From the IMG/VR virus record IMGVR_UViG_2534681936_000014, positions 1 to 35,002 of that record: DNA of 35,002 nucleotides. The stretch is one strand, 5' to 3'. Within the stretch, counting starts at the first letter, position 1. Every line of letters begins with the position of its first letter. Both the position numbers and the translations under genes were made by a program. The stretch is from a virus. Its lineage: Duplodnaviria > Heunggongvirae > Uroviricota > Caudoviricetes. Below, piece after piece: positions 2,637 to 33,526 of the stretch. Below the pieces are notes generated by a model. It was not told where the DNA came from and did no database searches. It was given only the letters and a program-made list of their open reading frames with translations.

Positions 2637-2651
2637 AGATTCACCCCTCTA

Positions 2652-4138: not shown

Positions 4139-4172
4139 GTATGTTTAACCAGTGCCGTATGTGTTAACAGTG
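4139..4172. repeat. Imperfect tandem direct repeat, 2 x 16 bp (GTATGTTTAACCAGTG / GTATGTGTTAACAGTG), each containing a GTTAAC-like palindrome
   Basis: Read directly at 4139-4154 and 4157-4172 in the ORF-free region. Confidence 0.6.
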
Positions 4173-4306
4173 AATCAGGGGATTTTCAGAAGTGAACAAT
4201 CATTTCATGCATGTATTTATACACGAAAAAATCTTGCTTATCATCAATATGGGGATTGTTTCGAAAATTTCAACCCCTACCAACGAGAAAAAGTATAAAA
4301 TAATCC

Positions 4307-4320
4307 TTGACAGTTGTCAA
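4307..4320. promoter_or_regulatory. Perfect 14-bp palindrome TTGACAGTTGTCAA (operator-like; contains a TTGACA -35-like hexamer on both strands)
   Basis: Read directly; a related inverted repeat TTGTCAA-N6-TTGACAA occurs at 5702-5721. Confidence 0.45.
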
Positions 4321-4345
4321 TACACTTGACCTAAGCGAGAAATGA

Positions 4346-4517
4346 CTATCAAAATTTTTGTGTGAAAATGGCGGATAACGATTATCAACCTTTATAACCT
4401 ATTATAGCACGGCGACCTTTTGATAATTCTTTTTAAATCATGCATTTACAGCGATTTTTGGTGATTTTCCGGTTAAATAATATACAAGAATTTTCTATCA
4501 AAATTTTTGATGAAAAA
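4346..4517. repeat. Pair of 23-bp direct repeats (CTATCAAAATTTTTG[T/A]TGAAAA) 149 bp apart flanking an AT-rich segment with TTATCAA DnaA-box-like motifs
   Basis: Copies at 4346-4368 and 4495-4517 differ at 1-2 positions; GATTATCAAC (4380-4389) and TTGATAATTC (4421-4430) in inverted orientation between them. Confidence 0.55.
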
Positions 4518-4638
4518 CCTACACTACAAACCTACGCTTTAAAGGGATTGGCCTACACTACACTAGCCAGTAAACCTACACTATAACACCCTCAAACCTA
4601 CACTATGAAACCTACACACCTACACTAACCCTACACTT
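4518..4638 (+). repeat. Iteron-like array: 7 or more copies of CCTACACTA (variants CCTACGC, CCTACACACC, CCTACACTT) with irregular 10-30 bp spacing
   Basis: Copies read at 4518, 4531, 4552, 4575, 4597, 4611/4618 and 4629; all in one orientation; no ORF. Confidence 0.7.
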
Positions 4639-5211
4639 CAATCTCATAATTGTATGATCTTGAAAGACATTTCACCCCACAGACCATAGAATATAAAATT
4701 CGAACTAACGTTCTCCTTTTTGCTCGTTTTCTCTCACTACGTTCAAGAAAGATCTCGCAAAAAGAATACGGCGTAGCCGTGCGCGAAGCGCCCATCAACA
4801 CCTTCTAAGACCTGCAAGCAGGATTCGAAAGGGATTGGATAGTTCGCTTCGCTCACGTTCACGCCTACGGCGTTCACTCGCTTTTGAAAGGATTTTCTTA
4901 GAAAGGGATTTAATACTAGTTACTAACTGATTCTAGTAAACGAACGAAGTGAGTAACAATCACTTTCTAGAAAGGTATTGGTATCCCTTCGGGATTGCAA
5001 CCTTCGGTTGCTAAATTGCTTCCTGATTATTATTTCTCCAAAAGAAAGATTCTTATATTCTAAAGATACTTCTTCGTTTTGATGATGATTTAATCAAATC
5101 ATGAAGGAGGGCTTTGCCCGACTGAATACAATCACTCTTTTCATAATAACAAGAATTTTCTCTTTATAAATAATATTAGATTGATTCACTTTCTTTTAGA
5201 GGATTTCCACT

Positions 5212-5559
5212 ATGAACCATAAAATGACTACCACTACTCCTTTCATCCTGTTAGGTTTTGATGCTGATAGCTTCCACAATGACAAGTTAATGAAGATGTT
5301 CCGTGAACGTGGTTACAACATTCTTTTCAACTCTGATGAATCTCATTTCTCTAGTGCATGGTATGCGTTTTGCCGTAATAAGAAGCCGACCATTGTTGTT
5401 AACGTCTTCACCGATGAAGAACGCTTAAAGTACCAGAATCTACCAGCAATTATTGTTCGTGATGATCTGCCGTTTCAAGTCCGTTCCGGTGACATTGATC
5501 TGGGTAGCTTCGTTACTGTCTATGAACTGGATGAAGCAATGTTTAACTACGGCAAATAA
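5212..5559 (+). CDS. Hypothetical protein (115 aa)
   Basis: ATG at 5212 with AGAGGA RBS; the TAA stop is followed in frame by a 39-codon acidic extension (see findings). Confidence 0.5.
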   Translation: MNHKMTTTTPFILLGFDADSFHNDKLMKMFRERGYNILFNSDESHFSSAWYAFCRNKKPTIVVNVFTDEERLKYQNLPAIIVRDDLPFQVRSGDIDLGSFVTVYELDEAMFNYGK

Positions 5560-5701
5560 CCCGCTCAGGAAGCCCCAGAACAAGATGAACAAGACGAAGA
5601 TGACGACGACTACGCACCAATCTGTTTCTCTTCTCAGAATGGCTTCTACGGTTACGATGAAGGCTTAGATATGCTGTAAGTTAGGTCAACCCTTTGGCGT
5701 C

Positions 5702-5743
5702 TTGTCAAGGGGTATTGACAAAATTTTATGACTTTTTATGATT
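5702..5743 (+). promoter_or_regulatory. Candidate sigma70-type promoter (TTGACA-16bp-TATGAT) overlapped by inverted repeat TTGTCAA-N6-TTGACAA
   Basis: -35 TTGACA at 5715-5720, -10 TATGAT at 5737-5742; inverted repeat 5702-5721; about 60 bp upstream of the 5801 ORF. Confidence 0.45.
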
Positions 5744-5800
5744 GTTGCACTTGACAACTTTGAACCTATTTGACCTAGATTTGTAAAAAGGATGTTAATT

Positions 5801-5947
5801 ATGAACACTACTAAGAAAATTGATGGACGTAAAAACCCGAACCGCAAACCGTGGACCCCAAACCTGAATTTCTCAATGGTTGACTTCCATGAACGCCAGC
5901 GTCGCATTCAAGAAGAAATTGATCGCGCGATTGCTGAATCTAAATGA
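5801..5947 (+). CDS. Small basic protein (48 aa), unknown function
   Basis: ATG at 5801 with AAAAAGGA RBS 7 nt upstream; translation MNTTKKIDGRKNPNRKPWTPNLNFSMVDFHERQRRIQEEIDRAIAESK; below ORF-track cutoff. Confidence 0.4.
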   Translation: MNTTKKIDGRKNPNRKPWTPNLNFSMVDFHERQRRIQEEIDRAIAESK

Positions 5948-6045
5948 GATAAAAACTTCTTATAAATAAAATTGTTCCGGTGATGCTGCCGGAACTAGGA
6001 GGATCAATATCATTATCGCAAAACCGTTTAAGGGGAATTACTACT

Positions 6046-6879
6046 ATGAATACTGTTACTACTATGAATACTGCTGTTAAAACTGCTTCCGTGTCTCTGG
6101 TTGTTGATAACGAAGTTGCAAAAATGACTCTTCGTGAAATTGCCGACCTTATTGGAGTTCGTTTTTCAAACCTTGAAACTTCTATGAACCGACTGGTTGA
6201 ACGCCAAGTTATCCGAAAACCTGCAACGCAGAATTTCGAGAAAATCAATAACTTAGGGTTTGCTGTTACTGTTAAAGATTATGTGTTTGAGGGTGAGCAA
6301 GGTCGCTTAGATTCGATTGTCTTGATTGCTCAAAACGTACCGGAATTTACTCGCCAACTGGTTGACCGTTGGAATTATCTGGAAGAGAAACTGAAAACCG
6401 CCAATAATACTCCTGTTAACCCGTATGCAGACTTTGAAGAAACCGATTGGATCGAACTGGCATTAGATGAAAAACGCAAAAATAAAAAACTGATTGAGCT
6501 ACACATTCGCAAATCCGTAGATAGCCATTCTATGACACGTCTGTTAGGCGCTAAAAAGGGCGCTACGAAGGTTAAAGAAGCACTGACGGCCTTACGTACT
6601 GCTGGATACATTGAGCGCGTCTATGATGAAAATAACAAGCCGTGTGGGTATGTTGCTAATGACTCTTCTCTGTCTTTCTGCCGCATGAATGCTCACTACC
6701 AACTTGAGTTTACTGTTGATGTTCTTCCGGTGCTGGTTGAATTGGGCGTTTTGGAAGAAGAACAGAAAGCAACTCTTAAACTACCGCAGCCAAATAACAC
6801 TATTCTGATTCAAAACAAAGCTGCTAAACAGATTCGTGAATCAGGTAACGTAATTTCCCTTGTTGATTTTGGGATCTGA
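6046..6879 (+). CDS. Putative phage regulatory protein (Rha/antirepressor-like N-terminal HTH segment); function uncertain
   Basis: Internal ATG at 6046 with AAGGGGA RBS (ORF-track start 5980 is a GTG); segment MTLREIADLIGVRFSNLETSMNRLVERQ resembles Rha-type DNA-binding domains from memory. Confidence 0.45.
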   Translation: MNTVTTMNTAVKTASVSLVVDNEVAKMTLREIADLIGVRFSNLETSMNRLVERQVIRKPATQNFEKINNLGFAVTVKDYVFEGEQGRLDSIVLIAQNVPEFTRQLVDRWNYLEEKLKTANNTPVNPYADFEETDWIELALDEKRKNKKLIELHIRKSVDSHSMTRLLGAKKGATKVKEALTALRTAGYIERVYDENNKPCGYVANDSSLSFCRMNAHYQLEFTVDVLPVLVELGVLEEEQKATLKLPQPNNTILIQNKAAKQIRESGNVISLVDFGI

Positions 6880-15773: not shown

Positions 15774-18700
15774 ATGCAATCAATCCAATTTAAACGAACT
15801 AATGTTTCTGGCAAAAAACCAACGCCGGAACAATTACAGGTCGGTGAGGTAGCAATCAACCTTAAAGACCATGTTATTTTTACCAAAGACCGAGATCATG
15901 AAGTAGTTCAAATCTCTGTTTCTCCTGAAACTCACGCGGCACTAGAATCTAAAGTTGATGCTAACAAACAAGAATTGGATAGCACAATTGCAGTAAATGA
16001 CCGCAATATTCACGCTAAAGTAGATGAAATTAAACAAACTACTGATTCTACTATCGCAGCAAATCATGCAGAAATTAACAATAAAGTTGATGTAATTAAA
16101 CGCGAAACCGACGCGACAATCGAAGCTAATAAAAATAAAGCTGCTTCCGATCTTGCTGGTGTTAAAGCTGAATTGTCGGATACCATCAACGCTAATAAAA
16201 ATGCGGCTGCTGTAGCAACTCAGGAACTGGACACCCGCATCAATAAAAAAGTTGATGATATTAAATCCCGTACTGATGCAACCATCGCAAGCAATCACAA
16301 AGCAATCAATGACAAAGTTGATTTGATTAAGGCAGAAACTGACCGCACTATCGCAGCAAATCAAGCCTATGCGGAAAATCAGTTAACTGACACCTACAAT
16401 AACCTTACTGGTGTGATTGCAGCTAATAAGCAAGAGGCAGCGGATAGCGTCGCAGCATTAACCCGTGATGTTGAAGCCAAAAATACAGCAATTCATAGCA
16501 AAATTGACAACAACAAGGTTTACACTGATTCTGAATTGGCACGCTTAGAAAGCCGTATTGATGCAGCCGATGGATCTGCTGATGGCAAGTACATCAAAAA
16601 ACACGTAAACACTTATACTGATGGTTATTTGCTGTCTAAGACCGCAAACTATTTTGATGATCCAAATGCGCGTAATCTTGATTACTTTGGTGCATTCCGC
16701 ATGAATGACCTGGCGGGTCATATTGCAATGATCTTGCATGTTCCGCATCCATCTGGTGTTAATCATGCTCGTGGCTTTGAGTTCACTTATGGGTCTAATC
16801 CACATGCTACTGTAAGAACATACGGCTATGATGAATTAGGTAATTTGTCATATTCTCACCGCATGTATCATGAAGGCGATAAACCTACTCCGGCTGAAAT
16901 TGGCGCATATTCGAAAGCAGAAATTGACCGACTGTTCCAGAAGACGCTTAATTTTGGGATCGAGGGTGGTTGGTTTAAACTCGGTAGTTTAACACTGCCA
17001 CAGCAACACGGTCGTAGTGCTAAGATCCGCTTAGTTGGTGGTAACGGTTATAACGTCGGGATGAATGGACAAGCCAATATTATCGAATTGGTGATTCGAT
17101 GCGGCAACAATAGCCCGAAAGGTGTTGTATTCAATGCTTATTATAGCATCTGGTATCACGAACAACATTTTTGTGCAATTCCTACCGATGGTGATAATTA
17201 CGATCTTTACGCTTACTACGGTGCACATACAGGATTTGTTTTAGCAGAATATCAAGTTTCTTCCGGTGGTGTTTCTTTAAACCTGTTGGATACTCCTGAA
17301 TATCTGGGTGGTGAAAAACCTGTTGCAGATGAAATTTTTGATGCTCTTAACATTTCATCGTTCAATAACTTTAGCAACCGTGGGACGTTAAATTTTGCTG
17401 GAAACCATCAAGGCCAATATGACATTGAGCATATGAACGAACAACAAACTAACAGCAAAAAGATGTTGCGTCGCTTCCGTAGTTCTGCTCCTGCCACTAT
17501 CTGGCACGAAAGTGTTGATGACCAAAATTATCGTCTTGCTACTGGTTATGACGATGTAAACCAACAATTATTGCTTTCGGCTGCAACCGGGTTACATGTC
17601 AAGAGATTAACATTGGATGGCGGTGTTGGTAATGCCGGTATTGACATTCGTCGAGGACCAAACGAATCAAGCCATTTTAATTTTATGGATTATCGCACTG
17701 GTCAAGATGTTCGTAATGGCTGGTTTGGTTTTGGTGATTTGACGACCAAAGATTTTATTTGGTGGAACGATAACGGCCAAAACTCGATAAACCTGATTGA
17801 AGATGGCGAGTTGCATATTACTGGTGGTAAAGGCCAGAAAATTGTAATGAATAGCGAAGTTGCATTATCCGAAAATGCTCGTTTGGCTGTCAAAGGCGGT
17901 AACTATGGTTTGATATTACGCAATGATGGTTCTAGCTTCCATATTCTTACTACCGATTTAAAAGATTCTTTTGGTAATTGGAATAATCGCAGACCATTCA
18001 GTTATGATTTTGCGGACGGTGGATTATATTTAGGTGGTACTGAAACTGCTCGTTGTTTGCATCTTGGAATTGATGGTAGCACTCGTCTCGAAGACAACCT
18101 GTTCTTTAAAGCTGGTTCTCGTCAATCTATGGACTATATGGAACTCGTCCATTGGGGTGCAAGCAATACAGGTCGAAATAACGTTTTAAGTCTTCGTGAC
18201 TCAAAAGGATTTTTAGCCGAATTTGAACGTCTATGGGATAATACTACCAAAAACACCTTCTTCGGGAAAATGAAAATTAATCGTGGATCTGATGCAATTA
18301 TCATGAATGCCGAAAGTGGTGATTCGTCTGTATATTTGTTGGGTACGTGTGCTGACAACAACAACTGGTATATTGGTAAAGGCGGTGGTGATAATGGATT
18401 AGCGTTCTATAGCTATGCTACTAATGCCGCGATAAATCTTACGAACGCTGGGGATATTGCATTAAGTCCAAAAGGCGTCGAAATGGTTCATGTTAATAAC
18501 GCTCGATTATATGTTCATGGTGAACGTTGGACCGCTAGTCAACCAGGTGATTGGGGTAATCAGTGGCGAGTGGAAGCGCCAATATTCGTCGATCATGGCT
18601 ATGTTGGACAAGACTGTTATTATCCGATTGTTAAAGCAAGAAGTTTAATCACCAATCAAGGGTATACAACTGCCGTCGATTTTGGTATGCGTCGTATCCC

Positions 18701-19199
18701 TAACAATTGGGGACAAGCAATTATTCGTGTTGGATCTGCGGAAAACTCACCTGATAACGGACACCCTCAAGCTGTATTTGAGTTCCATCACGATGGGTTC
18801 TTTTACACGCCGGGTAACGGTAGCTTTAACGATGTGCATATTCGATCTGATGAACGTCTTAAGATCAACAAGGAAGAATTGGAAGAAGGTGCGCTGGATA
18901 AATTAAACAGCTTAACCGTATATTCCTACGATAAAGTTAAATCACTTTCTGATGATACAGTGGTTGGACGCGAATTAGGTGTCATTGCTCAAGATGTGGA
19001 AAAAGTTATGCCGGAAGCTGTGCACGTTTGCAGCGATGGAGATACCGAAAATCCAGGAGAAATTAAAACTATTTCTGTTTCTAGTATCAATGCTCTTTTC
19101 GTGAAAGCCTTTCAGGAATTAACGACTAAGTATGATGCGATGAACGAAGAGTTGAAAGCTGTTAAAGCTGAACTTGCGGCTATTAAATCCTGTAAATGA
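15774..19199 (+). CDS. Tail fiber protein with C-terminal S74-type intramolecular chaperone (self-cleaving) domain
   Basis: 1141 aa; N-terminal shaft built from about 22-aa repeats (KVDxIKxxTDxTIAAN); C-terminal region ...SDERLKINKEELEEGALDKLNSLTVYSYDKV...GVIAQDVEKVMPEAVH... matches the signature of endosialidase / T5 L-shaped-fiber chaperone domains from memory. Confidence 0.85.
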   Translation: MQSIQFKRTNVSGKKPTPEQLQVGEVAINLKDHVIFTKDRDHEVVQISVSPETHAALESKVDANKQELDSTIAVNDRNIHAKVDEIKQTTDSTIAANHAEINNKVDVIKRETDATIEANKNKAASDLAGVKAELSDTINANKNAAAVATQELDTRINKKVDDIKSRTDATIASNHKAINDKVDLIKAETDRTIAANQAYAENQLTDTYNNLTGVIAANKQEAADSVAALTRDVEAKNTAIHSKIDNNKVYTDSELARLESRIDAADGSADGKYIKKHVNTYTDGYLLSKTANYFDDPNARNLDYFGAFRMNDLAGHIAMILHVPHPSGVNHARGFEFTYGSNPHATVRTYGYDELGNLSYSHRMYHEGDKPTPAEIGAYSKAEIDRLFQKTLNFGIEGGWFKLGSLTLPQQHGRSAKIRLVGGNGYNVGMNGQANIIELVIRCGNNSPKGVVFNAYYSIWYHEQHFCAIPTDGDNYDLYAYYGAHTGFVLAEYQVSSGGVSLNLLDTPEYLGGEKPVADEIFDALNISSFNNFSNRGTLNFAGNHQGQYDIEHMNEQQTNSKKMLRRFRSSAPATIWHESVDDQNYRLATGYDDVNQQLLLSAATGLHVKRLTLDGGVGNAGIDIRRGPNESSHFNFMDYRTGQDVRNGWFGFGDLTTKDFIWWNDNGQNSINLIEDGELHITGGKGQKIVMNSEVALSENARLAVKGGNYGLILRNDGSSFHILTTDLKDSFGNWNNRRPFSYDFADGGLYLGGTETARCLHLGIDGSTRLEDNLFFKAGSRQSMDYMELVHWGASNTGRNNVLSLRDSKGFLAEFERLWDNTTKNTFFGKMKINRGSDAIIMNAESGDSSVYLLGTCADNNNWYIGKGGGDNGLAFYSYATNAAINLTNAGDIALSPKGVEMVHVNNARLYVHGERWTASQPGDWGNQWRVEAPIFVDHGYVGQDCYYPIVKARSLITNQGYTTAVDFGMRRIPNNWGQAIIRVGSAENSPDNGHPQAVFEFHHDGFFYTPGNGSFNDVHIRSDERLKINKEELEEGALDKLNSLTVYSYDKVKSLSDDTVVGRELGVIAQDVEKVMPEAVHVCSDGDTENPGEIKTISVSSINALFVKAFQELTTKYDAMNEELKAVKAELAAIKSCK
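15952..16380 (+). repeat. Intragenic tandem repeats, about 66-bp period, encoding the fiber shaft
   Basis: Successive units starting near 15952, 16018, 16084, 16249 and 16315 all begin AAAGTxGATG...ATTAAA...ACxGA. Confidence 0.6.
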
Positions 19200-22961: not shown

Positions 22962-22966
22962 TTAAA

Positions 22967-23010
22967 AGCCCCCATAGTCATAAATAATCATAAAACTATG
23001 GGGGCTTTTC
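22967..23010 (+). other. Long hairpin (11-bp stem AGCCCCCATAG / CTATGGGGGCT, 18-nt loop) between tape measure and the next gene, overlapping that gene's RBS
   Basis: Read directly; followed by TTTTC and ATG at 23012. Confidence 0.6.
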
Positions 23011-23011
23011 T

Positions 23012-23572
23012 ATGTTCAAATCCAAGAATATTAAAATCACAGATTTTACTCTTAAATCAAAACAGCCTTTCTTCAAGGCGCAATCTATCTCCGGTAAGTT
23101 CCAGCGTCGCTTTACTGGCATTCATTTTTATGAAGCAGAATTTACAGCTAATTTCATGGCTCAGGATATTAACGAAGTAAAAGAATTTGTAGCACGTCAC
23201 CTTTTTGGTCGTCCTTTCAATGTGCCACTGTCTTACTTTTCAAAATATACAGGTGATGTACGCCAGATGGTTACGGCTGCTGCTGGTACTGCTCGCGGTG
23301 GGCGTAAGGTGAGAATCTCCAACTTCACCGGAACACTGAAAGCAGGAACTATCATCCAGTTTGAGAACCACAAGAAAATCTACACGATCACCGAAGACGT
23401 GAAATCAGGTGGCGAAATGAAACTCTTCCCTAACTTGCGTCAGAACGTCTTGGCGGGTGAGGTGATCAAGTATCAGAACGTAGAAGGTGAATTTGTTCTC
23501 AAAACTGAAAACATCGATTGGAAGATCGCCCAGATCGGCAAGATGAAATTTGAATTAGTGGAGAATGTATAA
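23012..23572 (+). CDS. Minor tail protein (tail-tip component, lambda M/L region equivalent)
   Basis: 186 aa, first gene after the tape measure gene; positional assignment. Confidence 0.5.
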   Translation: MFKSKNIKITDFTLKSKQPFFKAQSISGKFQRRFTGIHFYEAEFTANFMAQDINEVKEFVARHLFGRPFNVPLSYFSKYTGDVRQMVTAAAGTARGGRKVRISNFTGTLKAGTIIQFENHKKIYTITEDVKSGGEMKLFPNLRQNVLAGEVIKYQNVEGEFVLKTENIDWKIAQIGKMKFELVENV

Positions 23573-24225
23573 TGGCAACTATTCAGGAATCATTCAGCAA
23601 ACTATGCACTAATCTGGACTTCATCGAGGTATACAACGACCAGACAGGTCAGAATGTGTCTAGATTGACTCTACCGCAGCTTTTCTCCACTGGATCGATG
23701 TTTCACATTATCGAAGTAGTAACCGCGTCAGGGGACGTTCTACGGCTTACAGATGGGTACTTCGATTTGGACTATAACGGTTTTACGTATCTTGCAACGG
23801 GTGACTTTCTTCAAATCTCATCGAATACCGAAGAGAAGGAGATCAACAACAACGGGATCAACGTAACTGTTTCTAACGTCCGCGAAGAATACATTACCTT
23901 GATTCGAAACAAGCAATTCGATAAATCAGATGTGAAAATCGAGATGGTTTTCCTTAACCCTAACACGGGCAAGGTTGAAACTACTTACCCTGTTTTCCGT
24001 GGGGTAGTCGATTCCATCGGGATTAACATCGAACATGAAGATGATGAGTGTAAAAACGAATCAGAATTTCAGCTTAATAGTATCTGGGAAGTTCTAGATA
24101 AAAACGCTCGTAGTCATGCCTCTGATGGTATCCACCGATCATATGCTGGAAACGAGAACGATCTATTCTTCTCAAGGGCGGGTCGCTGGTTATCGGAAAG
24201 CAAGTGGCATTCGTCTAAAAAATAA
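23572..24225 (+). CDS. Minor tail protein (tail-tip component)
   Basis: 217 aa; start overlaps the upstream stop (TAATG); positional assignment. Confidence 0.5.
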   Translation: MATIQESFSKLCTNLDFIEVYNDQTGQNVSRLTLPQLFSTGSMFHIIEVVTASGDVLRLTDGYFDLDYNGFTYLATGDFLQISSNTEEKEINNNGINVTVSNVREEYITLIRNKQFDKSDVKIEMVFLNPNTGKVETTYPVFRGVVDSIGINIEHEDDECKNESEFQLNSIWEVLDKNARSHASDGIHRSYAGNENDLFFSRAGRWLSESKWHSSKK

Positions 24226-24299
24226 TACTGAAACTAAATGGCACACCAAAGCCCTCAATAAATATAGGAGAGATTCTTTATTTTTGAGGGCTTTCCTAT

Positions 24300-25073
24300 A
24301 TGCGAAAATTCCATTACGTTTATCACACCACTATTAAATCTAATCGCTCTGGTAAAATCTATCATTACGTCGGAAAAAGAACAACTACAAATCTAGACGA
24401 TGGATATGTGGGGTCGGGTAAAGTTATTAAAATGATGAAGCGTAAAAATAAAGAATCAGAAACCCCGATATATGAATTTGAAGTTGTTCGCTCAAAATTG
24501 TTTGATACTGCCGAGGAAGCGTTTGAATGTGAAATTCTGTTAGTGGAGGCAGCACGCGAAAAATGGGGGCGTGGTGTATGTCTTAATATTGCTCCTGGTG
24601 GTGTCGGTGGTTTTGATGGTGGTGAACATCACCCACTGTACGGAAAGAAACATAAGCCAGAAACAATCGAGAAATTTAGAAAGAACAACGCAGGTGAAGG
24701 AAACCCGATGTTTGGACGGGTAAGCCCAAAACGAGGAAGGAAGATAACTAATCCAGAAACGTTAGCTAAAATGTCCGCTGCAATGAAAGGCGCTAATAAT
24801 CCTCGATACGGCGCAATAGTCACCGAAGAAACACGCGCAAGAATTAGTAAGGCTTTATCTGGTCGAAAGATTACCGATCCTGTAGAAAAGGCTAACAGAA
24901 CTAAAGCAATTAGGGAATCGAAAGGTCAAGCATGTTGGCAACATTACGATGAAATTCGTCGTGTGTGGATCGAAAACGGTAAGCCCGGCGCGGCAAGATT
25001 ACGAACAATCATGATTGGCTTAGGCCATCCAAAATATGATCTTCGTAGAATGTGCGAAGACTTCAAGAAATAA
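24300..25073 (+). CDS. GIY-YIG homing endonuclease with NUMOD3-like repeats
   Basis: 257 aa; N-terminal HYVYHT...GKIYHYVGKRTT...GYVGSGK and FECEIL align with the I-TevI catalytic-domain pattern (GIYQIKN...VYVGSA...FECSIL) from memory; three G-x-x-H/NP-x-[YF]G-x-x-x-x-x-E-T-x-x-K-[IM]S repeats (HPLYGKKHKPETIEKF, NPMFGRVSPKRG...PETLAKMSAAM, NPRYGAIVTEETRARISKAL). Confidence 0.8.
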   Translation: MRKFHYVYHTTIKSNRSGKIYHYVGKRTTTNLDDGYVGSGKVIKMMKRKNKESETPIYEFEVVRSKLFDTAEEAFECEILLVEAAREKWGRGVCLNIAPGGVGGFDGGEHHPLYGKKHKPETIEKFRKNNAGEGNPMFGRVSPKRGRKITNPETLAKMSAAMKGANNPRYGAIVTEETRARISKALSGRKITDPVEKANRTKAIRESKGQACWQHYDEIRRVWIENGKPGAARLRTIMIGLGHPKYDLRRMCEDFKK

Positions 25074-25119
25074 TCCCTTCTCCCTAAGCCTAGTAAATAA
25101 CAGCATGGAGGTATTCAAC

Positions 25120-25539
25120 ATGCTAAAAACTAGGCTTATCACCGATTACATCAATTCTTTAATAGGTCAGGAGTTCGTTCAAGGCGAGAATGATTGCAAT
25201 ATAATTGCATGTAAGATAATCGATATTCTCGCTGGTACTGACCTATATAATTCTCTTTATAAAAAATATTCAACTAAAGAAGAAGGCTTGAAAATCTGCA
25301 AAGAATTAAGCGGATACACAAATATCCTTCAACCAATTAAGAAACATTTCAAATTAGTCACTGATGATTTACAGGACGGCGACTTACTGGTCACAGCCCA
25401 CAAATTAGGAAACCGCAAATATTATTCCGTAGTTCCTCATTATTCCGGTTATGGCCTCGTTGAAGAAGATGGTATCTGGATGACCATTCCTGTTTCAGAC
25501 ATTGACTATGAACAAGTTTATAGATTCGGGGGTGAATAA
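25120..25539 (+). CDS. Minor tail protein, possibly lambda K-like (Cys/His peptidase-like)
   Basis: 139 aa from ATG 25120 with GGAGG RBS; candidate catalytic Cys (ENDCNIIACK) and His residues (HYSGYG); weak. Confidence 0.4.
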   Translation: MLKTRLITDYINSLIGQEFVQGENDCNIIACKIIDILAGTDLYNSLYKKYSTKEEGLKICKELSGYTNILQPIKKHFKLVTDDLQDGDLLVTAHKLGNRKYYSVVPHYSGYGLVEEDGIWMTIPVSDIDYEQVYRFGGE

Positions 25540-28500
25540 TGGGATTTGAAATATTGGTAGGCGCGGTGATCGCTGGTGCTTCGGCGGGGATGGCGGCAGC
25601 CGCAACATTTTCTGTTATGACCGCAGTCGCTATCGGTATGGCTGCTGGTGCAATGACCTTGATCGCTTCCACTGTAGGCGCACCAAAAACACCGAAAGTA
25701 CAAAGCCCAGATAATGCGGTGACACTAGGAACATCAAACGATCCTAAGACAGTATTACCCGTTCTTTTCGGTACTACCCGCACGGGTGCAATCTGCGTTT
25801 ACAAAGCAATTTCACAGCGTGAAAACAACAAACTGGTACAAATTTTTGCTATTGCCGAAGGTGAGATCGATCACTTTAAAGCACTGCACATCGATAATAA
25901 AAACGTTCTCATTAGCCAGAATATGACAATTCGTGATGGCATTCTCGATAAAGGAAACATTAAAGACGAGTATCGCAAAGTTTTAGAAGTCGAGTTTCGC
26001 ACTGGTAAAAATCCTAACACTGCATTAGATCTGGCTAAACATCATTTGGGCGCAGATTGGGATGATCGGTATCAGGGTAACGGCATTGCGACCATGTGTA
26101 TTGTTTTACGTCGTGATGACAAATCTTTGGCTGCTGGTGTTGATATCCTTCAACCAAATAGCCAGGTAGCGGTCGATGTTATGGGCTTAAAGATTCGTAA
26201 CCTTGAAACTAATGCTATTGAGGCTAGCACTAACGGCGTGGACCAGATTTTCCACTACCTAACAAATGAAAAATATGGCTTATCCGTACCAATTGAAAAC
26301 ATCAACGTTGATTCATTCCTGAAAGTACGTAAACAAGTACGCCAGATGGATTTGCATTCAAACGGTGCATGTGATCCGAACGCCAGCTTTAAAGAGAACT
26401 TAACTAATCTCATGCAGACTTTCGGCGGGGTGATGTTCGAATCCTTCGGAAGAATTACCCTGAAACTGGATGCTCCTGATATTGTTAAGCATACCTTCAA
26501 TGAAGACAATATCATGATGGGTAAGGTATCACTGAAAACAGGTGGCACTAACGGTTATTTCAATACCATTAACGCGATGTATCAAGAACCATCAATCGAC
26601 TATTCCGAGCAAATGCTACGTTATCCGGCTGATGCTGAAAACGATGCTACTATTCGTCAAGATGGTCGAATTATCGCTAAAGATATTGAATATCGTTTTG
26701 TTAAGTCTAAAGCCCAGATTGATAAACTCGCGAGTGTAGAACGAAATAAATCTCGTATCACTCAGGTTATCAGCTTTATGACTACTGACGCATTCACTGC
26801 CGAAGTTTGGGATGTTATTAGCGTAACCTATGATGAATTAAAACTGAATAATTCACTTTGGCGTATTACTGCAATTGATCGCTCTATTGATTCTGGTATT
26901 GCTGGGATGATGACTATCACCGCCACAGAATATAATTCTCAGGTTTATACTGACCTGAACTATGCGGCGAATCCAGACAATAGACCTACTGGTTTACCGG
27001 ATTCAATGACAGTACAGAAACCGACTAATTTCAGAATTAAGGCAACTGGTGAGACAATCCACGGTAAAAACGTAACTTTGACATGGGATGCACCGGAAGA
27101 TTTCAACCGCTACGGTTTCCAGATTGATTACAAAGTGAGTGGATCACCTAACTGGATTAAGCTGGGACAGACTTCACAGCAAATTTTCAATATCAATGCA
27201 CTGGCTAAAGATCGTTCCTACGATTACCGCGTTTGTGCTTTCGGTATTATTGCTCGTTCCGAATGGGTGGAATTGGTTAACCAGAATCCAGAAGTTACCT
27301 ATGAACTGCCTACGCCAGCGATCCGCATCAAAAATCAGGGTAGTTCACCTGGTACTTTCGAAGGCAACGATCTGATTATTGAATGGGACAATCAGCAAGC
27401 CTTAGATGTGGTTATCAACGGTGAAACTAACAAGTTTAGTGACCTGTTTGAAGCCTACATTATCAAGGTAACTAACAAGGCTGGTAAGTCTATTCAGTAC
27501 CGTACCCGCGATCCTGAATCATGGACCTATACGCTCGATATGAACCAGTTTAACGGCCTTTCCCGTGAATTGACGGTAGAAGTATCCGCTAAGGGTTATA
27601 ACAACTCTGTAAGCGCCCCAGCGCGTTTAGTGGCTATTAACCCACAGCATAAGCCAATGAAAGGTTTTAGTGCGCGTGGTGGCTTTAATACTGCGTTTGT
27701 TAGCTGGGCGGATGACGTAGAACATGACTATGCAGGGTCAATCATCCAGTATGCAACCGATAACACTTTCTCAGATGCAAGGGCAGTAAGCACGAATAGT
27801 GTTAGCCATACTTCCTTTGATATTGCTGACGGTGATTATTATATCCGTGGTGCTCACTACGATATTTTCGGTATGGATGATGCTGTTTGGTCCGAACCGT
27901 ATTTCATGCAAATGAAATCTACCATTAGTTGGGACGATCAGGACAAAGAAGCACTGGAAGACCTGATCGGTTTACAAGATCGCTTAGATGAAACCATCGC
28001 GGATGCTATTGCTCAAGCTGGCGCTAATGCCGATGCTAAGATTGATGCAATGCATAAACAGATTACTACCGAGACAGGGCAGACGGTCCAAGCCTCAGCC
28101 GATACTCTCAAGAGTCTGATTGCTACCAGTGAGCAAGCCAGCGCAACTAAGATTGATCAGGTTAAAGCTGAACTGAAAGGCGATATCACCAAAGAAGTTA
28201 GCGCATCCGCTACTACCCTGAAACAAGCAATTGCTACCAGTGAGGCAGCAAGCGCAAGCAAGATTGATCAAGTTCGGGTAGAAATGGATGGTAAGATTGC
28301 TGGTGTGAATCAGGAAGCAGATGTAAAAATCGATGCTTTGAAGGGAACCATTAACAGCAAATATAATCTGGCAGTTAATGCAGATGGTCGCGTGGCTGGT
28401 ATTCATATGAGCGCAACCAACGATCCAGCACAACCGACGAGAATCATCTTTACGGCTGATAAAATCGCGGTAGCTCCACAAGACGGATCAGAAGTTTGTC

Positions 28501-29285
28501 CGTTTGGTATCGAAGATAACAAGGTTTATCTCGATAATGCAATGATTCGTAATGCAGCGATCGGAACCGCCCAGATTAGTGATGCTAGTATCACTACGGC
28601 TAAGATCGGCACAGCCCAGATTAACGGTGCTCACATCCAGCACGCACAGATCGGAACAGGTCATATTATTGATGGCTCTATCGATAATGCTAAAATTGGT
28701 AACTATATCCAGTCTTATAACTGGAATGGTAACGATGGATGGTATATTGGCAAAGATGGCACTTGCCATTTTAGACACGCTAATATTCGTGGTCATTTGG
28801 TGGCTGATTCCGGCGAAATGAACAACGTAACGATTAATTCAAGTTGCCGCATTTTGGGTATGCTTGATGCTAATCAGGTGCGTGGTGACTTCGTGAAAGT
28901 GGTTGGTAGGAGTTTCCCGCATCGCCAACCAAACTGGCCTGATGGTGCAATCACTGTAAGGGTCGAAGATGATCATCCATTCGATCGCCAAATAGTGATT
29001 CCAGCGATTCATCATAACGGGTCTGTTCGTCGTGGCGAAAGTAGCGATCATTGGGATACTTGCCGACTAATCGTTAAGAAAAATGGTGGTGTTCTATATG
29101 ATCGCACTGCAACTTCTGGCTGTATGTACAGTGGAGTTATTGACATGCCAGCCGGACACGGGGCAGTAACAATGACTTTTGAAGTTTACTGTAAGGGCGT
29201 TAACAACTATACCCCAAGTGCATATATCAGCGATCTAACGGTAATGGTAACTAAGAAAGCCGCTACTGGTATTTCTGTTTCTTAA
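25539..29285 (+). CDS. Central tail fiber / tip attachment protein (lambda J-like) with gpI-like hydrophobic N-terminal extension
   Basis: 1248 aa; N-terminal Ala/Gly-rich hydrophobic segment; a central region with fibronectin-type-III-like beta-strand character (by eye); C-terminal region with tandem repeats (TLKxxIATSExASAxKIDQV x2) and AxIGTAQIxxAxI repeats reminiscent of lambda J. Confidence 0.8.
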   Translation: MGFEILVGAVIAGASAGMAAAATFSVMTAVAIGMAAGAMTLIASTVGAPKTPKVQSPDNAVTLGTSNDPKTVLPVLFGTTRTGAICVYKAISQRENNKLVQIFAIAEGEIDHFKALHIDNKNVLISQNMTIRDGILDKGNIKDEYRKVLEVEFRTGKNPNTALDLAKHHLGADWDDRYQGNGIATMCIVLRRDDKSLAAGVDILQPNSQVAVDVMGLKIRNLETNAIEASTNGVDQIFHYLTNEKYGLSVPIENINVDSFLKVRKQVRQMDLHSNGACDPNASFKENLTNLMQTFGGVMFESFGRITLKLDAPDIVKHTFNEDNIMMGKVSLKTGGTNGYFNTINAMYQEPSIDYSEQMLRYPADAENDATIRQDGRIIAKDIEYRFVKSKAQIDKLASVERNKSRITQVISFMTTDAFTAEVWDVISVTYDELKLNNSLWRITAIDRSIDSGIAGMMTITATEYNSQVYTDLNYAANPDNRPTGLPDSMTVQKPTNFRIKATGETIHGKNVTLTWDAPEDFNRYGFQIDYKVSGSPNWIKLGQTSQQIFNINALAKDRSYDYRVCAFGIIARSEWVELVNQNPEVTYELPTPAIRIKNQGSSPGTFEGNDLIIEWDNQQALDVVINGETNKFSDLFEAYIIKVTNKAGKSIQYRTRDPESWTYTLDMNQFNGLSRELTVEVSAKGYNNSVSAPARLVAINPQHKPMKGFSARGGFNTAFVSWADDVEHDYAGSIIQYATDNTFSDARAVSTNSVSHTSFDIADGDYYIRGAHYDIFGMDDAVWSEPYFMQMKSTISWDDQDKEALEDLIGLQDRLDETIADAIAQAGANADAKIDAMHKQITTETGQTVQASADTLKSLIATSEQASATKIDQVKAELKGDITKEVSASATTLKQAIATSEAASASKIDQVRVEMDGKIAGVNQEADVKIDALKGTINSKYNLAVNADGRVAGIHMSATNDPAQPTRIIFTADKIAVAPQDGSEVCPFGIEDNKVYLDNAMIRNAAIGTAQISDASITTAKIGTAQINGAHIQHAQIGTGHIIDGSIDNAKIGNYIQSYNWNGNDGWYIGKDGTCHFRHANIRGHLVADSGEMNNVTINSSCRILGMLDANQVRGDFVKVVGRSFPHRQPNWPDGAITVRVEDDHPFDRQIVIPAIHHNGSVRRGESSDHWDTCRLIVKKNGGVLYDRTATSGCMYSGVIDMPAGHGAVTMTFEVYCKGVNNYTPSAYISDLTVMVTKKAATGISVS

Positions 29286-31827: not shown

Positions 31828-33507
31828 TTAAATTCCAAATTCCTGTAATGGACCTGGTATTTCTTCTTCTGGTTTCCAGTTCTTATCTGTCAGCATGTCT
31901 AAACATGGATGCAGAACAAGCCCGTTACTCTCCAGAATCTGCCTATCATTGATAGTCTTCAAATCAACGAAGATCCGGCCTTTCCTCGGTCCTCTTGAAT
32001 TTTCTATTACAACTCTCTGGGTCTTGCCATCGATGTATTCCAGTACAAACAAGTTTTTGTACTTGTCAATCCTGCTACACCCGATCCGTTTTAGAGCTTG
32101 CTTAATCTTAAACCGGACCTTAATGCGATCCTCGTTGTAAACATCTTCTAAATCAAATTCTGCGAGCTTCTCCCAGCCTTGAGAGTCAACAGAATACATT
32201 TCCTCTTCTGCCATCTTAATTTGATTGTAGAGTGTTTCACGCTCGCTATTGAGGGTAGTAATCTGATCGGCTAGCTCCTTCGTTGCTCCTGTCATAGCAG
32301 AAAGGGTAATCAGGTTATCAATCTTGCGTGATATTTCATCAATCTGTACTTTCAAAGCCGGAACCGGATTAGCCTTATCTTCAGCAATCCAGATTTTATC
32401 AGCCAGCAATTGCAATACAGCTTTCTCTAATTGGTCGCCGCGAAAACTCCAGTTTGTATGCACACATTCAATACGACTAGAGCGCATTGCATCGCATGAA
32501 TAACGATATTGGTTAGGCCGTCTGTTTGTTCCTTTCACCTTAACCATAGCGGAACCGCAATGTTCACATTTCAATAGACCAACACCACTAAGCAAGGGAA
32601 TAGGTTTAACTTCTTCTTTGTCTCCAAAGTTACATGCTCTAACACCAATGCTTTTCTTAAGGTGATAAAACTCAGCGTCATCTAGCACACGAGGATAATA
32701 ATCCTTTAACTCATACTTAACGCCATCTACAGAGATTTCCTTGATACCAATCAAAGCGCGGGTATGGAACAACCTTTCAATCATTGCCCGTGACCAGTTT
32801 GAATGCCTCTTGTGACTTGCGGCTGGTGGTGGTGTGTATGTCGCGTTAAGGTGATCCAGTATCTCGGCGGTTGACCGTCCATTCCTGCGTAATTCCACAA
32901 CTTCCTGAACAATAGGGAAGAAGACCGGATGAGGAAGCACATAACCAGATGTGGTATCAGTCCACCACATATTCTTTCCAATTTCCTCGATTGCAACAGC
33001 CGGATTTTGTGGATTTTCTTGATGAGCTTTAATCTTAATCAGTGCGCTTGAGTTAGTACGATTGCGCTTAGTCTGGCTTTCCTCATTACCACGGATGAAT
33101 AAAAGGATGGAGAACATCAGGTCCATCGGGTTAGCGGTAACAGTATCCAGCGAGTAGATCTTGTTATCCATGCCAGTAACAATGGTTATCCCCCTACGGA
33201 TGATTGAAAGGAATAACTCCTGCGCACTGACAATATCGGCACGGGATAAACGGTCCAAGTTTTCGATGAATAGCCAGCTACCAACAGGAACGGATCTACC
33301 TATTGCATCAAGGAAACGAGATAGCGCCCCTGTTTTGGAGTTAGCACCCTTAAACGCAGATACACCCAGATCCTGATAATCATTTACCAGTTCAAGGTCA
33401 TACTTTACCGCAATCTCTCTAGCCATCCTGATTTGTCGTTCATAACTCGAACCATCATTCTGACGCATAGACGAGAAACGAATATACGAATACAGTTTAG
33501 TTTTCAT
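31828..33507 (-). CDS. Large serine recombinase (resolvase-type catalytic domain, recombinase domain, zinc ribbon and coiled-coil C-terminal region)
   Basis: About 559 aa from ATG 33507; N-terminal YSYIRFSSMRQNDGSSYERQ with the catalytic Ser in the position typical of serine recombinases; Cys pairs (CEHCGS...CDAMRSSRIEC) and coiled-coil region downstream. Confidence 0.85.
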   Translation of the reverse strand: MKTKLYSYIRFSSMRQNDGSSYERQIRMAREIAVKYDLELVNDYQDLGVSAFKGANSKTGALSRFLDAIGRSVPVGSWLFIENLDRLSRADIVSAQELFLSIIRRGITIVTGMDNKIYSLDTVTANPMDLMFSILLFIRGNEESQTKRNRTNSSALIKIKAHQENPQNPAVAIEEIGKNMWWTDTTSGYVLPHPVFFPIVQEVVELRRNGRSTAEILDHLNATYTPPPAASHKRHSNWSRAMIERLFHTRALIGIKEISVDGVKYELKDYYPRVLDDAEFYHLKKSIGVRACNFGDKEEVKPIPLLSGVGLLKCEHCGSAMVKVKGTNRRPNQYRYSCDAMRSSRIECVHTNWSFRGDQLEKAVLQLLADKIWIAEDKANPVPALKVQIDEISRKIDNLITLSAMTGATKELADQITTLNSERETLYNQIKMAEEEMYSVDSQGWEKLAEFDLEDVYNEDRIKVRFKIKQALKRIGCSRIDKYKNLFVLEYIDGKTQRVVIENSRGPRKGRIFVDLKTINDRQILESNGLVLHPCLDMLTDKNWKPEEEIPGPLQEFGI

Positions 33508-33526
33508 ACCATTTCCAAACAAAAAC

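What the first reader, a model, noticed from the sequence alone, without database searches (positions are those of the whole stretch)
24251..25080. Free-standing GIY-YIG homing endonuclease inserted inside the tail-tip gene cluster
A clear GIY-YIG enzyme with three NUMOD3-like repeats lies between tail-tip genes (23572-24225 and 25120-25539) that are usually contiguous in lambda-like tails. Its coding sequence runs 38 nt into the upstream end of the ORF-track frame for the next gene, and it is preceded by an 8-bp-stem hairpin (GCCCTCAA...TTGAGGGC, 24251-24290). This looks like a recent mobile insertion likely to drive marker exclusion against related phages lacking it.
Basis: partly seen in the sequence, partly recalled or inferred. 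Interest (0 to 1): 0.5.

Follow-up and report, generated by a model that had tools for sequence, protein, structure and literature searches.

The report
Mobile GIY-YIG endonuclease in prophage tail
An 848-bp selfish-gene cassette encoding a Seg/I-TevI-type GIY-YIG homing endonuclease sits between two tail-tip genes of an E. coli prophage. About 90% of closely related prophages lack it, so it is a clear but fairly ordinary new example of a known kind of mobile element.

Summary

The window is an E. coli prophage, 100% identical to O55:H7 DEC5A. Of 56 complete E. coli genomes with this tail region, 50 lack exactly 848 bp (24226-25073); of 29 close IMG/VR prophage loci, 25 lack it. In these the two tail genes are 46 nt apart.

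Identical copies of the cassette lie in flanks that differ by 4-8%, which indicates horizontal spread. Three alleles exist, mosaic by domain. The last ~60 nt of the upstream gene, next to the insertion point, are a unique spike of mostly codon-swapping diversity and recombination.

The hairpin is real and larger than reported (24248-24294, about -24 kcal/mol). It buries the only Shine-Dalgarno sequence. A paralogue has an unrelated hairpin doing the same.

The 38-nt overlap is a longest-ORF artefact; the next gene starts at 25120.

Verdict: a new member of a known kind. Cleavage and homing are inferred, not shown.

The parts
24226..25073 (+). 848-bp mobile cassette (74-nt leader plus endonuclease ORF with its stop codon). 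It is absent, to the base, from cassette-free relatives.
   Evidence: Alignment A1. Junction patterns. Cassette-free E. coli hits span exactly 1453 bp = 2301-848. The insert is found only at this site, in 6/5426 complete genomes.
24300..25073 (+). Endonuclease ORF, 257 aa (RefSeq WP_001224541.1, named 'NUMOD3 domain-containing DNA-binding protein').
   Evidence: Intact (256-257 aa) in all 21 carriers read.
24300..24617 (+). GIY-YIG nuclease domain (about aa 1-106): Y8 (GIY), Y23-V-G25 (YIG), R27, Y36xGSG40, E78, N96. Predicted beta-beta-alpha-beta-alpha topology.
24618..24869 (+). Linker with three NUMOD3 repeats (about aa 107-190). This is the most diverged part between alleles.
   Evidence: Pfam NUMOD3, 3 stretches. 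The profile matches the I-TevI DNA-binding domain 1i3j, E 4e-5. v1 and v2 are 56% identical at nucleotide level here.
24879..25070 (+). C-terminal all-helical domain (about aa 194-257) with the subfamily motif W..YDE....W..N.K......GYP; presumed DNA-binding.
24248..24294 (+). Extended RNA hairpin in the leader (11 bp, bulge, 5 bp, 4 bp, GAGA loop). Its 3' arm contains the only Shine-Dalgarno-like sequence of the endonuclease gene.
   Evidence: Fold -23.7 kcal/mol, z -4.7, 0/200 shuffles as stable. Invariant in all cassette alleles. Absent from cassette-free junctions, z +0.5.
24286..24289 (+). GAGG Shine-Dalgarno candidate, 10 nt upstream of the ATG and fully paired inside the hairpin.
   Evidence: Sequence and fold.
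24217..24225 (+). Left copy (AAAAAATAA) of a 9-bp imperfect direct repeat bounding the cassette. It encodes the last two Lys codons and the stop of the hub-like gene.
   Evidence: Cassette-free alleles have AAGAAATAA here, identical to the right copy.
25065..25073 (+). Right copy (AAGAAATAA) of the repeat. It encodes the last two Lys codons and the stop of the endonuclease. The insertion boundary is therefore ambiguous by 9 bp.
24159..24219 (+). Hypervariable mosaic patch at the 3' end of the hub-like gene, 7-66 nt upstream of the insertion point. It is the candidate cleavage and co-conversion zone (inferred).
   Evidence: Pi is 0.197, against no more than 0.074 in every other 50-nt window of 22962-25553. 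The protein stays nearly constant while codons are swapped: AGG/CGT, AGC/TCA/TCG. piS is 0.53, against 0.15-0.30 in the other windows. There are 91-92 four-gamete-incompatible site pairs, against 0-23 elsewhere.
23572..24225 (+). Upstream flanking gene: hub-like tail-tip protein (DUF2163 / phiJL001 gp84 N-terminal domain).
   Evidence: Pfam PF09931. PHROG 2048 'tail protein'. RefSeq names.
25074..25119 (+). Conserved 46-nt intergenic region carrying the RBS (GGAGG, 25108-25112) of the next gene. It is identical in cassette-bearing and cassette-free alleles.
   Evidence: pi 0.008 for 25104-25153.
25120..25539 (+). Downstream flanking gene, DUF6950 family tail protein. The true start is 25120, not 25036.
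   Evidence: Pfam PF22262. RefSeq CDS at L068 21721 = window 25120. The same start is called in the cassette-free genomes.

Best explanation
Window 24226-25073 is a free-standing homing-endonuclease cassette of the T-even Seg / I-TevI type. It is lodged in the 46-nt spacer between the hub-like gene (DUF2163) and the DUF6950 tail-tip gene of a temperate E. coli prophage.

**Shown here**
- The protein has a GIY-YIG nuclease fold with the family-invariant residues, a NUMOD3 linker and a C-terminal helical domain.
- The cassette is a precise 848-bp presence/absence polymorphism.
- Identical cassettes lie on diverged flanks.
- The gene is intact and under purifying selection.
- The leader folds into a stable hairpin that pairs the only Shine-Dalgarno sequence.

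**Inferred mechanism**
1. The gene has no promoter or terminator of its own and is read through with the late tail operon.
2. The hairpin keeps translation low or conditional, as described for I-TevI, segB and mobE.
3. When a cassette-bearing and a cassette-free relative share a cell (superinfection of a lysogen, polylysogeny, co-induction), the enzyme binds the empty allele, probably on the invariant intergenic sequence, and cuts nearby. The cut is probably in the last ~60 nt of the hub-like gene.
4. Recombinational repair from the cassette-bearing genome copies in the cassette plus tens to hundreds of bp of flank.
5. Cassette-bearing alleles are protected because the insertion splits the site, and/or because of the linked synonymous changes (AAG->AAA in all alleles; TCA->TCG in v1 and v2).
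6. Repeated cutting, short-tract repair and escape would explain the codon-swapped mosaic patch beside the site.
For: **Domain identity**
- NUMOD3 x3. PHROG 314 'homing endonuclease', E 1.6e-25.
- About 30% identity over the full length to Seg-type genes, including one annotated segE, in T4-like phages.
- An exhaustive phmmer search found 3861 homologues.
- Y8, G25, Y36, G38, G40, E78 and N96 are invariant in 80 homologues. Position 27 is only H or R.
- 36/80 homologues hit PF19835 SegE_GIY-YIG and 35/80 hit PF01541.
- The profile aligns the motifs to I-TevI.

**Polymorphism**
- 6 of 56 complete E. coli genomes carry it and 4 of 29 close IMG/VR loci.
- The junctions are exact.

**Horizontal spread**
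- v1 cassettes are 100% identical while their flanks differ by 112-144 of 2600 nt on the left and up to 87 of 2400 nt on the right.
- Identity blocks extend only 78-204 nt to the left and 28-810 nt to the right.
- Cassette-bearing haplotypes are closer to cassette-free ones than to each other.
- L025 (with cassette) and L005 (without) differ by 1 nt over 2.1 kb on the right. They differ by 21 nt within 24159-24219.

**Selection**
- Within v2 there are 19 synonymous and 3 nonsynonymous changes. dN/dS is 0.15 in the C-terminal part between v1 and v2.

**Hairpin**
- The paralogue in L083 has an unrelated 12-bp hairpin pairing its GGAGG.
- RBS-sequestering hairpins are documented for I-TevI, I-TevII, I-TevIII, segB and mobE (PMC2988022).
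- No sigma-70 promoter or intrinsic terminator was predicted in 23900-25300.

**Hotspot:**
Against: - No cleavage, homing or expression data exist.
- Pfam GIY-YIG models do not hit this protein directly. Foldseek against PDB gave nothing significant.
- The counterpart of the catalytic Arg of I-TevI (R27) could not be mapped with certainty.
- These prophages are mosaic throughout (Rm > 0 in many windows). Ordinary homologous recombination could therefore also place identical cassettes on different flanks.
- The link between the hypervariable patch and cleavage rests on position only. The chance that a single spike falls next to the site is about 2 in 52 windows.
- The hairpin is invariant, so there is no covariation support.
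- The SD-ATG spacing of 10 nt is long.
Confidence: 0.72

Rival explanations
1. The nuclease is kept mainly as a weapon of the prophage or lysogen. It would cut superinfecting or co-resident related phages (exclusion or defence), and spread of the gene itself would be secondary.
For: - The gene sits in a prophage carried by many E. coli strains and is under purifying selection.
- Endonuclease-driven exclusion of competitor markers is documented in T-even phages (PMC2988022).
Against: - The gene lies in the late tail operon with no promoter of its own and a buried RBS. Expression in the lysogenic state is therefore unlikely.
- The insertion-site polymorphism and flank identity blocks are what homing predicts.
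- The two roles are not exclusive.
Confidence: 0.12
2. It is an inactive or domesticated DNA-binding protein, as the RefSeq name implies. On this view the presence/absence pattern comes only from general recombination and occasional deletion between the 9-bp repeats.
For: - Pfam sees only NUMOD3. Position 27 is R where 90% of the family has H.
- The region is recombinogenic in general.
- The imperfect direct repeats AAAAAATAA/AAGAAATAA could mediate precise loss.
- L027 has a junction that could be a loss footprint.
Against: - All family-invariant nuclease residues are kept. The nuclease domain is the best conserved part: 1 amino-acid change in 108 residues between alleles.
- The R/H alternation at position 27 is a normal family state.
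- Deletion between the repeats would mostly leave AAAAAATAA. The cassette-free alleles examined carry AAGAAATAA, apart from L027.
Confidence: 0.08
3. The hairpin is not a translational control. It would instead be a transcript-processing, stabilising or partial terminator element marking the end of the upstream gene, or a relic carried in with the cassette.
For: It starts 23 nt after the hub-like gene's stop codon, is GC-rich at its base and ends in UUU. The paralogue in L083 has a genuine terminator-like hairpin after the preceding gene.
Against: - The terminator scan did not flag it. The U-tract is only 3 nt long and lies inside the stem.
- DUF6950 and the J-like gene downstream need read-through.
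- The 3' arm covers exactly the SD. In L083 a second, separate hairpin covers that gene's SD.
Confidence: 0.15
4. The cassette is ancestral to this prophage group, and the cassette-free state arose by many independent precise losses rather than by gains.
For: - The alleles are old: synonymous sites are saturated between v1 and v2 in the middle region.
- A possible loss footprint exists in L027.
- Homing-endonuclease life cycles include loss (general knowledge).
Against: - Each allele shows 0 differences over 848 nt across flanks diverged by 4-8%. That means recent spread, not long vertical residence.
- The cassette-free alleles examined share the same exact junction, apart from L027.
Confidence: 0.08

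Closest known systems
T4 / T-even Seg endonucleases (SegA-SegG), free-standing GIY-YIG homing endonucleases
   Same: - Seg-type N-terminal motif (Y..T...YIGK[H/R][ST]T.NL.DGY.GSG ... E ... N); PF19835 SegE_GIY-YIG hits 36/80 homologues.
- About 28-32% identity over the full length to seg-like genes of T4-like phages.
- Intergenic, co-oriented insertion between conserved genes, with presence/absence among close relatives.
- A hairpin over the RBS, as reported for segB (PMC2988022).
- Polymorphic flanks.
   Different: - Resides in a temperate, serine-recombinase-integrated E. coli prophage with a siphovirus-type tail-tip module, not in a virulent T-even genome.
- Its C-terminal W..YDE..W..N.K..GYP domain is shared only with a small prophage-borne subfamily.
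- No T4-type late promoter can be claimed; there is only a 7/8 match, which chance explains.
I-TevI (td intron endonuclease of phage T4; PDB 1LN0/1MK0 catalytic domain, 1I3J DNA-binding domain)
   Same: - The profile aligns Y8/Y23/E78/N96 to Y6/Y17/E75/N90. The NUMOD3 region matches 1I3J at E 4e-5.
- Same modular plan: nuclease, flexible linker, helical DNA-binding end.
- Translation limited by an RBS hairpin.
   Different: - Not intron-encoded.
- No zinc-finger module detected.
- 14-17% sequence identity.
- The distance and motif of cleavage are unknown here.
Prophage-borne paralogues P0004 and P0005 (36-38% identity) in other bacterial genomes
   Same: Same three-domain architecture and C-terminal motif. 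They also sit in intergenic slots of the late operon of prophages with the same head gene order, after the capsid gene or before the GpA terminase gene. The L083 copy has an SD-sequestering hairpin.
   Different: Different insertion sites and different numbers of NUMOD3 repeats. None has been characterised experimentally.

Membership tests
GIY-YIG nuclease superfamily | GIY and YIG motifs with their two conserved tyrosines, 10-15 residues apart, on strands beta1 and beta2 | tested here: met
   Y6-V-Y8 and Y23-V-G25. Y8 and G25 are invariant and Y23 is 79/80 in the homologue alignment. They align to I-TevI IYQ...VYVG.
GIY-YIG nuclease superfamily | Catalytic Glu (I-TevI E75) and structural Asn (I-TevI N90) | tested here: met
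   E78 and N96 are invariant in 80/80 sequences. The profile alignment puts them on E75 and N90 of 1LN0.
GIY-YIG nuclease superfamily | Conserved catalytic Arg (I-TevI R27) | tested here: inconclusive
   That stretch did not align to I-TevI. The query's R27 sits in a column that holds only H (72) or R (8), making it a plausible but unproven counterpart.
GIY-YIG nuclease superfamily | beta-beta-alpha-beta-alpha core fold | tested here: met
   [not shown]
Pfam PF01541 (GIY-YIG) / PF19835 (SegE_GIY-YIG) as sequence models | The protein itself scores above the model's threshold | tested here: not met
   No hit even at E<=10 for the whole protein or for residues 1-107. Homologues do hit: 35/80 and 36/80. 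I take this as a sensitivity limit of the models, not as evidence against the fold.
NUMOD3-containing homing-endonuclease DNA-binding modules | NUMOD3 repeats above the Pfam threshold | tested here: met
   PF07460: 57.4 bits against a cutoff of 20.4, 3 stretches.
Free-standing homing endonuclease gene (functional class) | Precise presence/absence at one genomic site among otherwise near-identical genomes | tested here: met
   The 848-bp insert has exact junctions. It is in 6/56 complete E. coli genomes and 4/29 close IMG/VR loci, always at the same site.
Free-standing homing endonuclease gene (functional class) | The enzyme cleaves the cassette-free allele but not its own | not testable with these tools
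   This needs an in vitro cleavage assay. Only candidate immunity changes were seen: the split site, AAG->AAA in all alleles, and TCA->TCG in v1 and v2.
Free-standing homing endonuclease gene (functional class) | Spread by gene conversion with co-conversion of flanking markers | tested here: inconclusive
   Identical cassettes with short shared flank blocks (78-204 nt left, 28-810 nt right) sit on diverged backgrounds. This fits homing, but general recombination in these mosaic prophages could give the same pattern.
Free-standing homing endonuclease gene (functional class) | Intact ORF maintained by purifying selection | tested here: met
   All 21 carriers read are intact. Within v2 there are 19 synonymous and 3 nonsynonymous changes. 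dN/dS is 0.05-0.28 in the N-terminal part and 0.15 in the C-terminal part.

The most novel reading that the evidence does not exclude
The last ~60 nt of the hub-like gene are the enzyme's cleavage zone, and the E. coli prophage population records a live arms race there. Empty alleles would escape by swapping codons while keeping the protein (AGG/CGT, AGC/TCA/TCG). Endonuclease alleles would respond by shuffling whole DNA-binding modules, as in v1, v2 and the v1/v2 chimera v3, each linked to its own flank haplotype. This would be a natural, sequence-resolved case of endonuclease-target co-evolution in temperate phages. The cassette would have entered from the T-even gene pool, with which this prophage demonstrably exchanges tail-fibre DNA.
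Probability: 0.25. Interest if true: 0.55.

Novelty: new member of a known kind. Interest (0 to 1): 0.35.

Why it matters
Free-standing homing endonucleases are best known from virulent phages such as T4. Here a Seg-like one sits in the tail module of a temperate E. coli prophage, and dozens of near-isogenic sequenced relatives with and without it are already available. It also comes in three alleles that are mosaic by domain, next to a hotspot of codon-level diversity. Three things follow.

1. It gives a tractable natural system (lysogens, induction, co-infection) for measuring homing, co-conversion and target escape in temperate phages.
2. It corrects the database name 'NUMOD3 domain-containing DNA-binding protein'; the protein is most likely a GIY-YIG endonuclease.
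3. It may explain a local diversity spike in a conserved tail gene that would otherwise look like noise.

It does not change what is known about how such elements work.

Tried and rejected
- **Direct Pfam scans** of the whole protein and of residues 1-107 at E<=10 found no GIY-YIG hit.
- **NCBIfam** gave only a sub-threshold 'group I intron endonuclease' hit over the NUMOD3 region.
- **The word-indexed homologue search** with the N-terminal domain found only 2 near-identical proteins. The exhaustive search was needed.
- **Megablast of the tail region against INPHARED phages** found no match. By protein, only Escherichia phage DCP80 is related (43% and 29% identity), and it has no cassette at this site.
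- **Genome-contig scans.** The hub-like protein found nothing. Alignment A2 was too diverse to search with. Alignment A3 gave 4 distant, uninformative MAG loci.
- **Promoter/terminator scan** of 23900-25300 found no promoter and no terminator at the hairpin.
- **A T4-late-promoter reading** of AATAAATA at 24257, inside the 5' arm: it is a 7/8 match, and such matches occur about once per 1.2 kb on this strand. I do not claim it.
- **An I-TevI-style CNNNG cleavage motif** (CATCG in many empty alleles, CGTCT in v1 and v2): noted by eye only. Other empty alleles also lack it, so I do not claim it.
- **Literature search** for this prophage or this insertion found nothing specific.
Full report
**1. 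What is at the coordinates**

The only long ORF in the stated interval is window 24300-25073 (+), 257 aa. It follows the hub-like tail gene 23572-24225 after a 74-nt leader. It ends 46 nt before the ATG at 25120 of the next gene.

Pfam finds three NUMOD3 repeats (E 1.3e-15). PHROGs assigns the protein to 'homing endonuclease' family 314 (E 1.6e-25). tblastn finds about 30% identity over the full length to Seg-type genes, one of them annotated segE, in 244 mostly T4-like phages.

The flanking genes are tail-tip genes:
- a Dit-like gene at 23012-23572;
- a DUF2163 / phiJL001-gp84-N hub-like gene at 23572-24225;
- a DUF6950 gene at 25120-25539;
- a J-like tip protein at 25539-29285.

GC content shows no anomaly over the gene.

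**2. Is it really GIY-YIG?**

Simple tests do not show it. Pfam gives no GIY-YIG hit at E<=10, even for residues 1-107 alone. phmmer against PDB gives nothing. NCBIfam gives only a weak intron-endonuclease hit over the NUMOD3 part.

Deeper tests do show it.
- An exhaustive phmmer search of 1.84 billion representatives found 3861 homologues.
- In an alignment of 80 of them, Y8, G25, Y36, G38, G40, E78 and N96 are invariant and Y23 is nearly so. Position 27 holds only H (72) or R (8); the query has R.
- Of these 80 homologues, 36 hit PF19835 (SegE_GIY-YIG) and 35 hit PF01541.
- The profile aligns Y8, Y23, E78 and N96 to Y6, Y17, E75 and N90 of I-TevI. Its NUMOD3 region matches the I-TevI DNA-binding domain at E 4e-5.
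- An AlphaFold2 model built on this alignment has mean pLDDT 88.6, with a beta-beta-alpha-beta-alpha N-terminal domain at pLDDT 95-97.
- The C-terminal about 65 residues form a confident helical bundle with weak HTH-type matches.

I conclude that the protein is a GIY-YIG enzyme of the Seg / I-TevI modular type with its catalytic residues in place. The counterpart of the I-TevI catalytic Arg is not securely mapped.

**3. Where the window comes from**

The region is 100% identical to the chromosomes of E. coli O55:H7 DEC5A and FDAARGOS_946. It is a prophage inserted in hicB next to ydcR. The prophage carries a large serine recombinase at window 31828-33522 (-).

RefSeq names the protein 'NUMOD3 domain-containing DNA-binding protein' (WP_001224541.1). 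RefSeq starts the next gene at window 25120.

No sequenced phage in INPHARED is a nucleotide-level relative of the tail region. Only Escherichia phage DCP80 has distant protein homologues of both flanking genes, and these lie about 160 nt apart with no endonuclease between them.

**4. The insertion polymorphism**

- Of 5426 complete E. coli genomes, 56 have this tail region and only 6 have the gene. The other 50 match over exactly 2301-848 = 1453 bp.
- The 848-bp insert occurs nowhere else in those genomes.
- In IMG/VR, 29 loci with a close copy (89-100% identity) of the upstream gene could be scored at the junction. Four of them have the gene.
- The alignment shows the empty site as ...AAGAAATAA|TCCCTTCTCCC... 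The filled site is ...AAAAAATAA|TACTGAAAC...[gene]...TTCAAGAAATAA|TCCCTTCTCCC...
- The cassette is therefore 24226-25073. It is bounded by a 9-bp imperfect direct repeat that supplies the Lys-Lys-stop end of both the hub-like gene and the endonuclease.
- The 46-nt spacer with the RBS of the DUF6950 gene is untouched.
- The reported 38-nt overlap exists only because the longest ORF in that frame starts at an upstream ATG (25036).

**5. Evidence for horizontal movement**

I aligned 2.6 kb of left flank and 2.4 kb of right flank, with the cassette removed, for 45 loci representing 41 haplotypes.
- Cassette-bearing haplotypes are not each other's nearest neighbours. Each is closer to some cassette-free haplotype.
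- All eight v1 copies read are identical over the 774-nt ORF. Their flanks differ by 112-144 of 2600 nt on the left and up to 87 of 2400 nt on the right.
- The identical block around the cassette reaches only 94-204 nt to the left and 28-810 nt to the right. For v2 it reaches 78-162 nt to the left and 69-108 nt to the right.
- One pair is nearly isogenic on the right: L025 (with cassette) and L005 (without) differ by 1 nt in 2.1 kb. On the left, they differ at 21 positions packed into 24159-24219.

This is the pattern expected of homing with short co-conversion tracts. Because these prophages are mosaic in general, ordinary recombination cannot be excluded as the vehicle.

**6. Three mosaic alleles**

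- Between v1 (this window) and v2, codons 1-108 are 98-99% identical at nucleotide level, with one amino-acid change.
- Codons 109-200 (the NUMOD3 region) are 56% identical, with synonymous sites saturated.
- Codons 201-257 are 79% identical, with dN/dS 0.15.
- A third allele in strain BS74R-D joins a v1-like middle to a v2 C-terminus. It sits on a third flank haplotype.
- Within v2 there are 19 synonymous and 3 nonsynonymous differences.
- All 21 copies read are intact.

The gene is thus old, constrained and recombining at its domain boundaries.

**7. A diversity hotspot next to the site**

- Across the conserved stretch 22962-25553, every 50-nt window has pi no higher than 0.074, except 24159-24208 with 0.197.
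- There the protein is almost constant (FSRAGRW[Q/N/L]SESKW[H/F]SSKK*). The codons are exchanged wholesale: AGG/CGT for Arg, and AGC/TCA/TCG for Ser.
- piS is 0.53, against 0.15-0.30 in the other windows of the hub-like gene.
- Four-gamete-incompatible site pairs number 91-92, against 0-23 in the other 66-nt windows.
- The one change shared by every cassette-bearing allele is AAG->AAA in the penultimate Lys codon; only the atypical cassette-free L027 also has it. v1 and v2 also share TCA->TCG.

I read the patch as the likely cleavage and repair zone. This rests on position and pattern, not on a test.

**8. The hairpin**

- The reported arms are real. The structure extends to 24248-24294 (11 bp, bulge, 5 bp, 4 bp). 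It folds at -23.7 kcal/mol, z -4.7, and no shuffle folds as well.
- Its 3' arm pairs GAGG (24286-24289), the only SD-like sequence upstream of the ATG.
- It is invariant in all alleles and belongs to the cassette. The empty junction is unstructured (z +0.5).
- The nearest paralogue, P0004 in locus L083, lies after a capsid gene. It has a terminator-like hairpin followed by an unrelated 12-bp hairpin that pairs its own GGAGG.
- A second paralogue, in L084, shows only a weak version (z -1.1).
- No sigma-70 promoter or intrinsic terminator is predicted around the cassette.
- RBS-sequestering hairpins are an established control of I-TevI, I-TevII, I-TevIII, segB and mobE (PMC2988022).

Translational restraint of a gene read through from the late operon is therefore the best reading. 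It remains untested.

**9. Comparison with known systems, and novelty**

The element works like, and by fold and motifs belongs with, the Seg / I-TevI class of GIY-YIG homing endonucleases. It differs in three respects.
- It lives in a temperate E. coli prophage.
- It sits in the tail-tip module.
- It belongs to a small subfamily with its own C-terminal domain. The other members also occupy intergenic slots of prophage late operons.

It is a new member of a known kind. The population data (three mosaic alleles and a codon-swapped hotspot) are its most interesting aspect.

**10. Verdict**

Cleavage, homing and marker exclusion are inferred, not shown. Interest 0.35.

Noticed in passing
window about 400-1150 and about 17370-18940 (inside ORF 15774-19199): Two segments share 82-89% nucleotide identity with 129 T4-like phages (Krischvirus, Tequatrovirus and others). 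The second lies in their long-tail-fibre distal subunit gene and the first in a neighbouring hypothetical gene. This temperate prophage therefore exchanges DNA with T-even phages, the classical home of Seg endonucleases.
   Followed up: partly
window 15774-19199 (+): A 1141-aa ORF between the head genes and the tail-tube gene combines a T4 Gp34 trimerisation domain with a Peptidase_S74 intramolecular chaperone. It looks like a side tail fibre built from T-even fibre parts, in an unusual position upstream of the tube gene.
   Followed up: no
L081 3875-4648 (E. coli BS74R-D, NZ_CP063332.1): A third endonuclease allele is a chimera: common N-terminus, v1-like NUMOD3 middle and a v2-identical C-terminus. 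It sits on a third hub 3' haplotype that lacks the TCG marker.
   Followed up: yes
L027 about 4640-4660 (IMGVR_UViG_2648501186_000019): This cassette-free allele ends ...TCTAAAAAGTAATAA|TCCC. That is the cassette-type left junction plus an extra TAA. It could be a footprint of cassette loss through AATA microhomology, or the ancestral tandem-stop recipient site.
   Followed up: partly
L083 4001-4822; L084-L086 gene at 4001-4717 or 2385-3101: The nearest paralogues (36-38% identity) sit in other intergenic slots of similar prophages. One follows the capsid gene. One lies just before and overlaps the GpA terminase gene, with an HNH_3 gene next to it. The L083 hairpin carries a perfect TATAAT in its 5' arm and loop.
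   Followed up: partly
window 31828-33522 (-), and L068 31640-31759: The prophage encodes a large serine recombinase (Resolvase, Recombinase and Zn_ribbon_recom domains). It is integrated into hicB next to ydcR, leaving a truncated hicB.
   Followed up: partly
L079 1004-2166 and 4311-5008; L082 5520-6217; L067 about 4240-6261: Several relatives are decaying prophages. IS3 and IS1 have replaced much of the tape-measure and J-like genes in strain L73, IS1 has split the J-like gene in 14EC017, and J is truncated to 291 aa in CP058828. Some carriers therefore cannot be active phages.
   Followed up: no
L001 (Escherichia phage DCP80, PQ671644.1): The only INPHARED phage with homologues of the flanking tail genes is a 141-kb record classified as Straboviridae/Gaprivervirus. 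Yet it carries this siphovirus-type tail-tip block. Its DUF6950 homologue is unannotated. The record may be chimeric or misclassified.
   Followed up: no
window 1-780 (-): The ORF at the window edge has an LprI (lysozyme inhibitor) domain. It overlaps the first T-even-like DNA segment.
   Followed up: no
window 1701, 3655, 5165, 5961 (+): There are four exact copies of TATAAATA, the T4 late-promoter consensus. All lie in the first 6 kb, upstream of the structural genes, and none elsewhere on this strand. This may be chance in AT-rich spacers.
   Followed up: no
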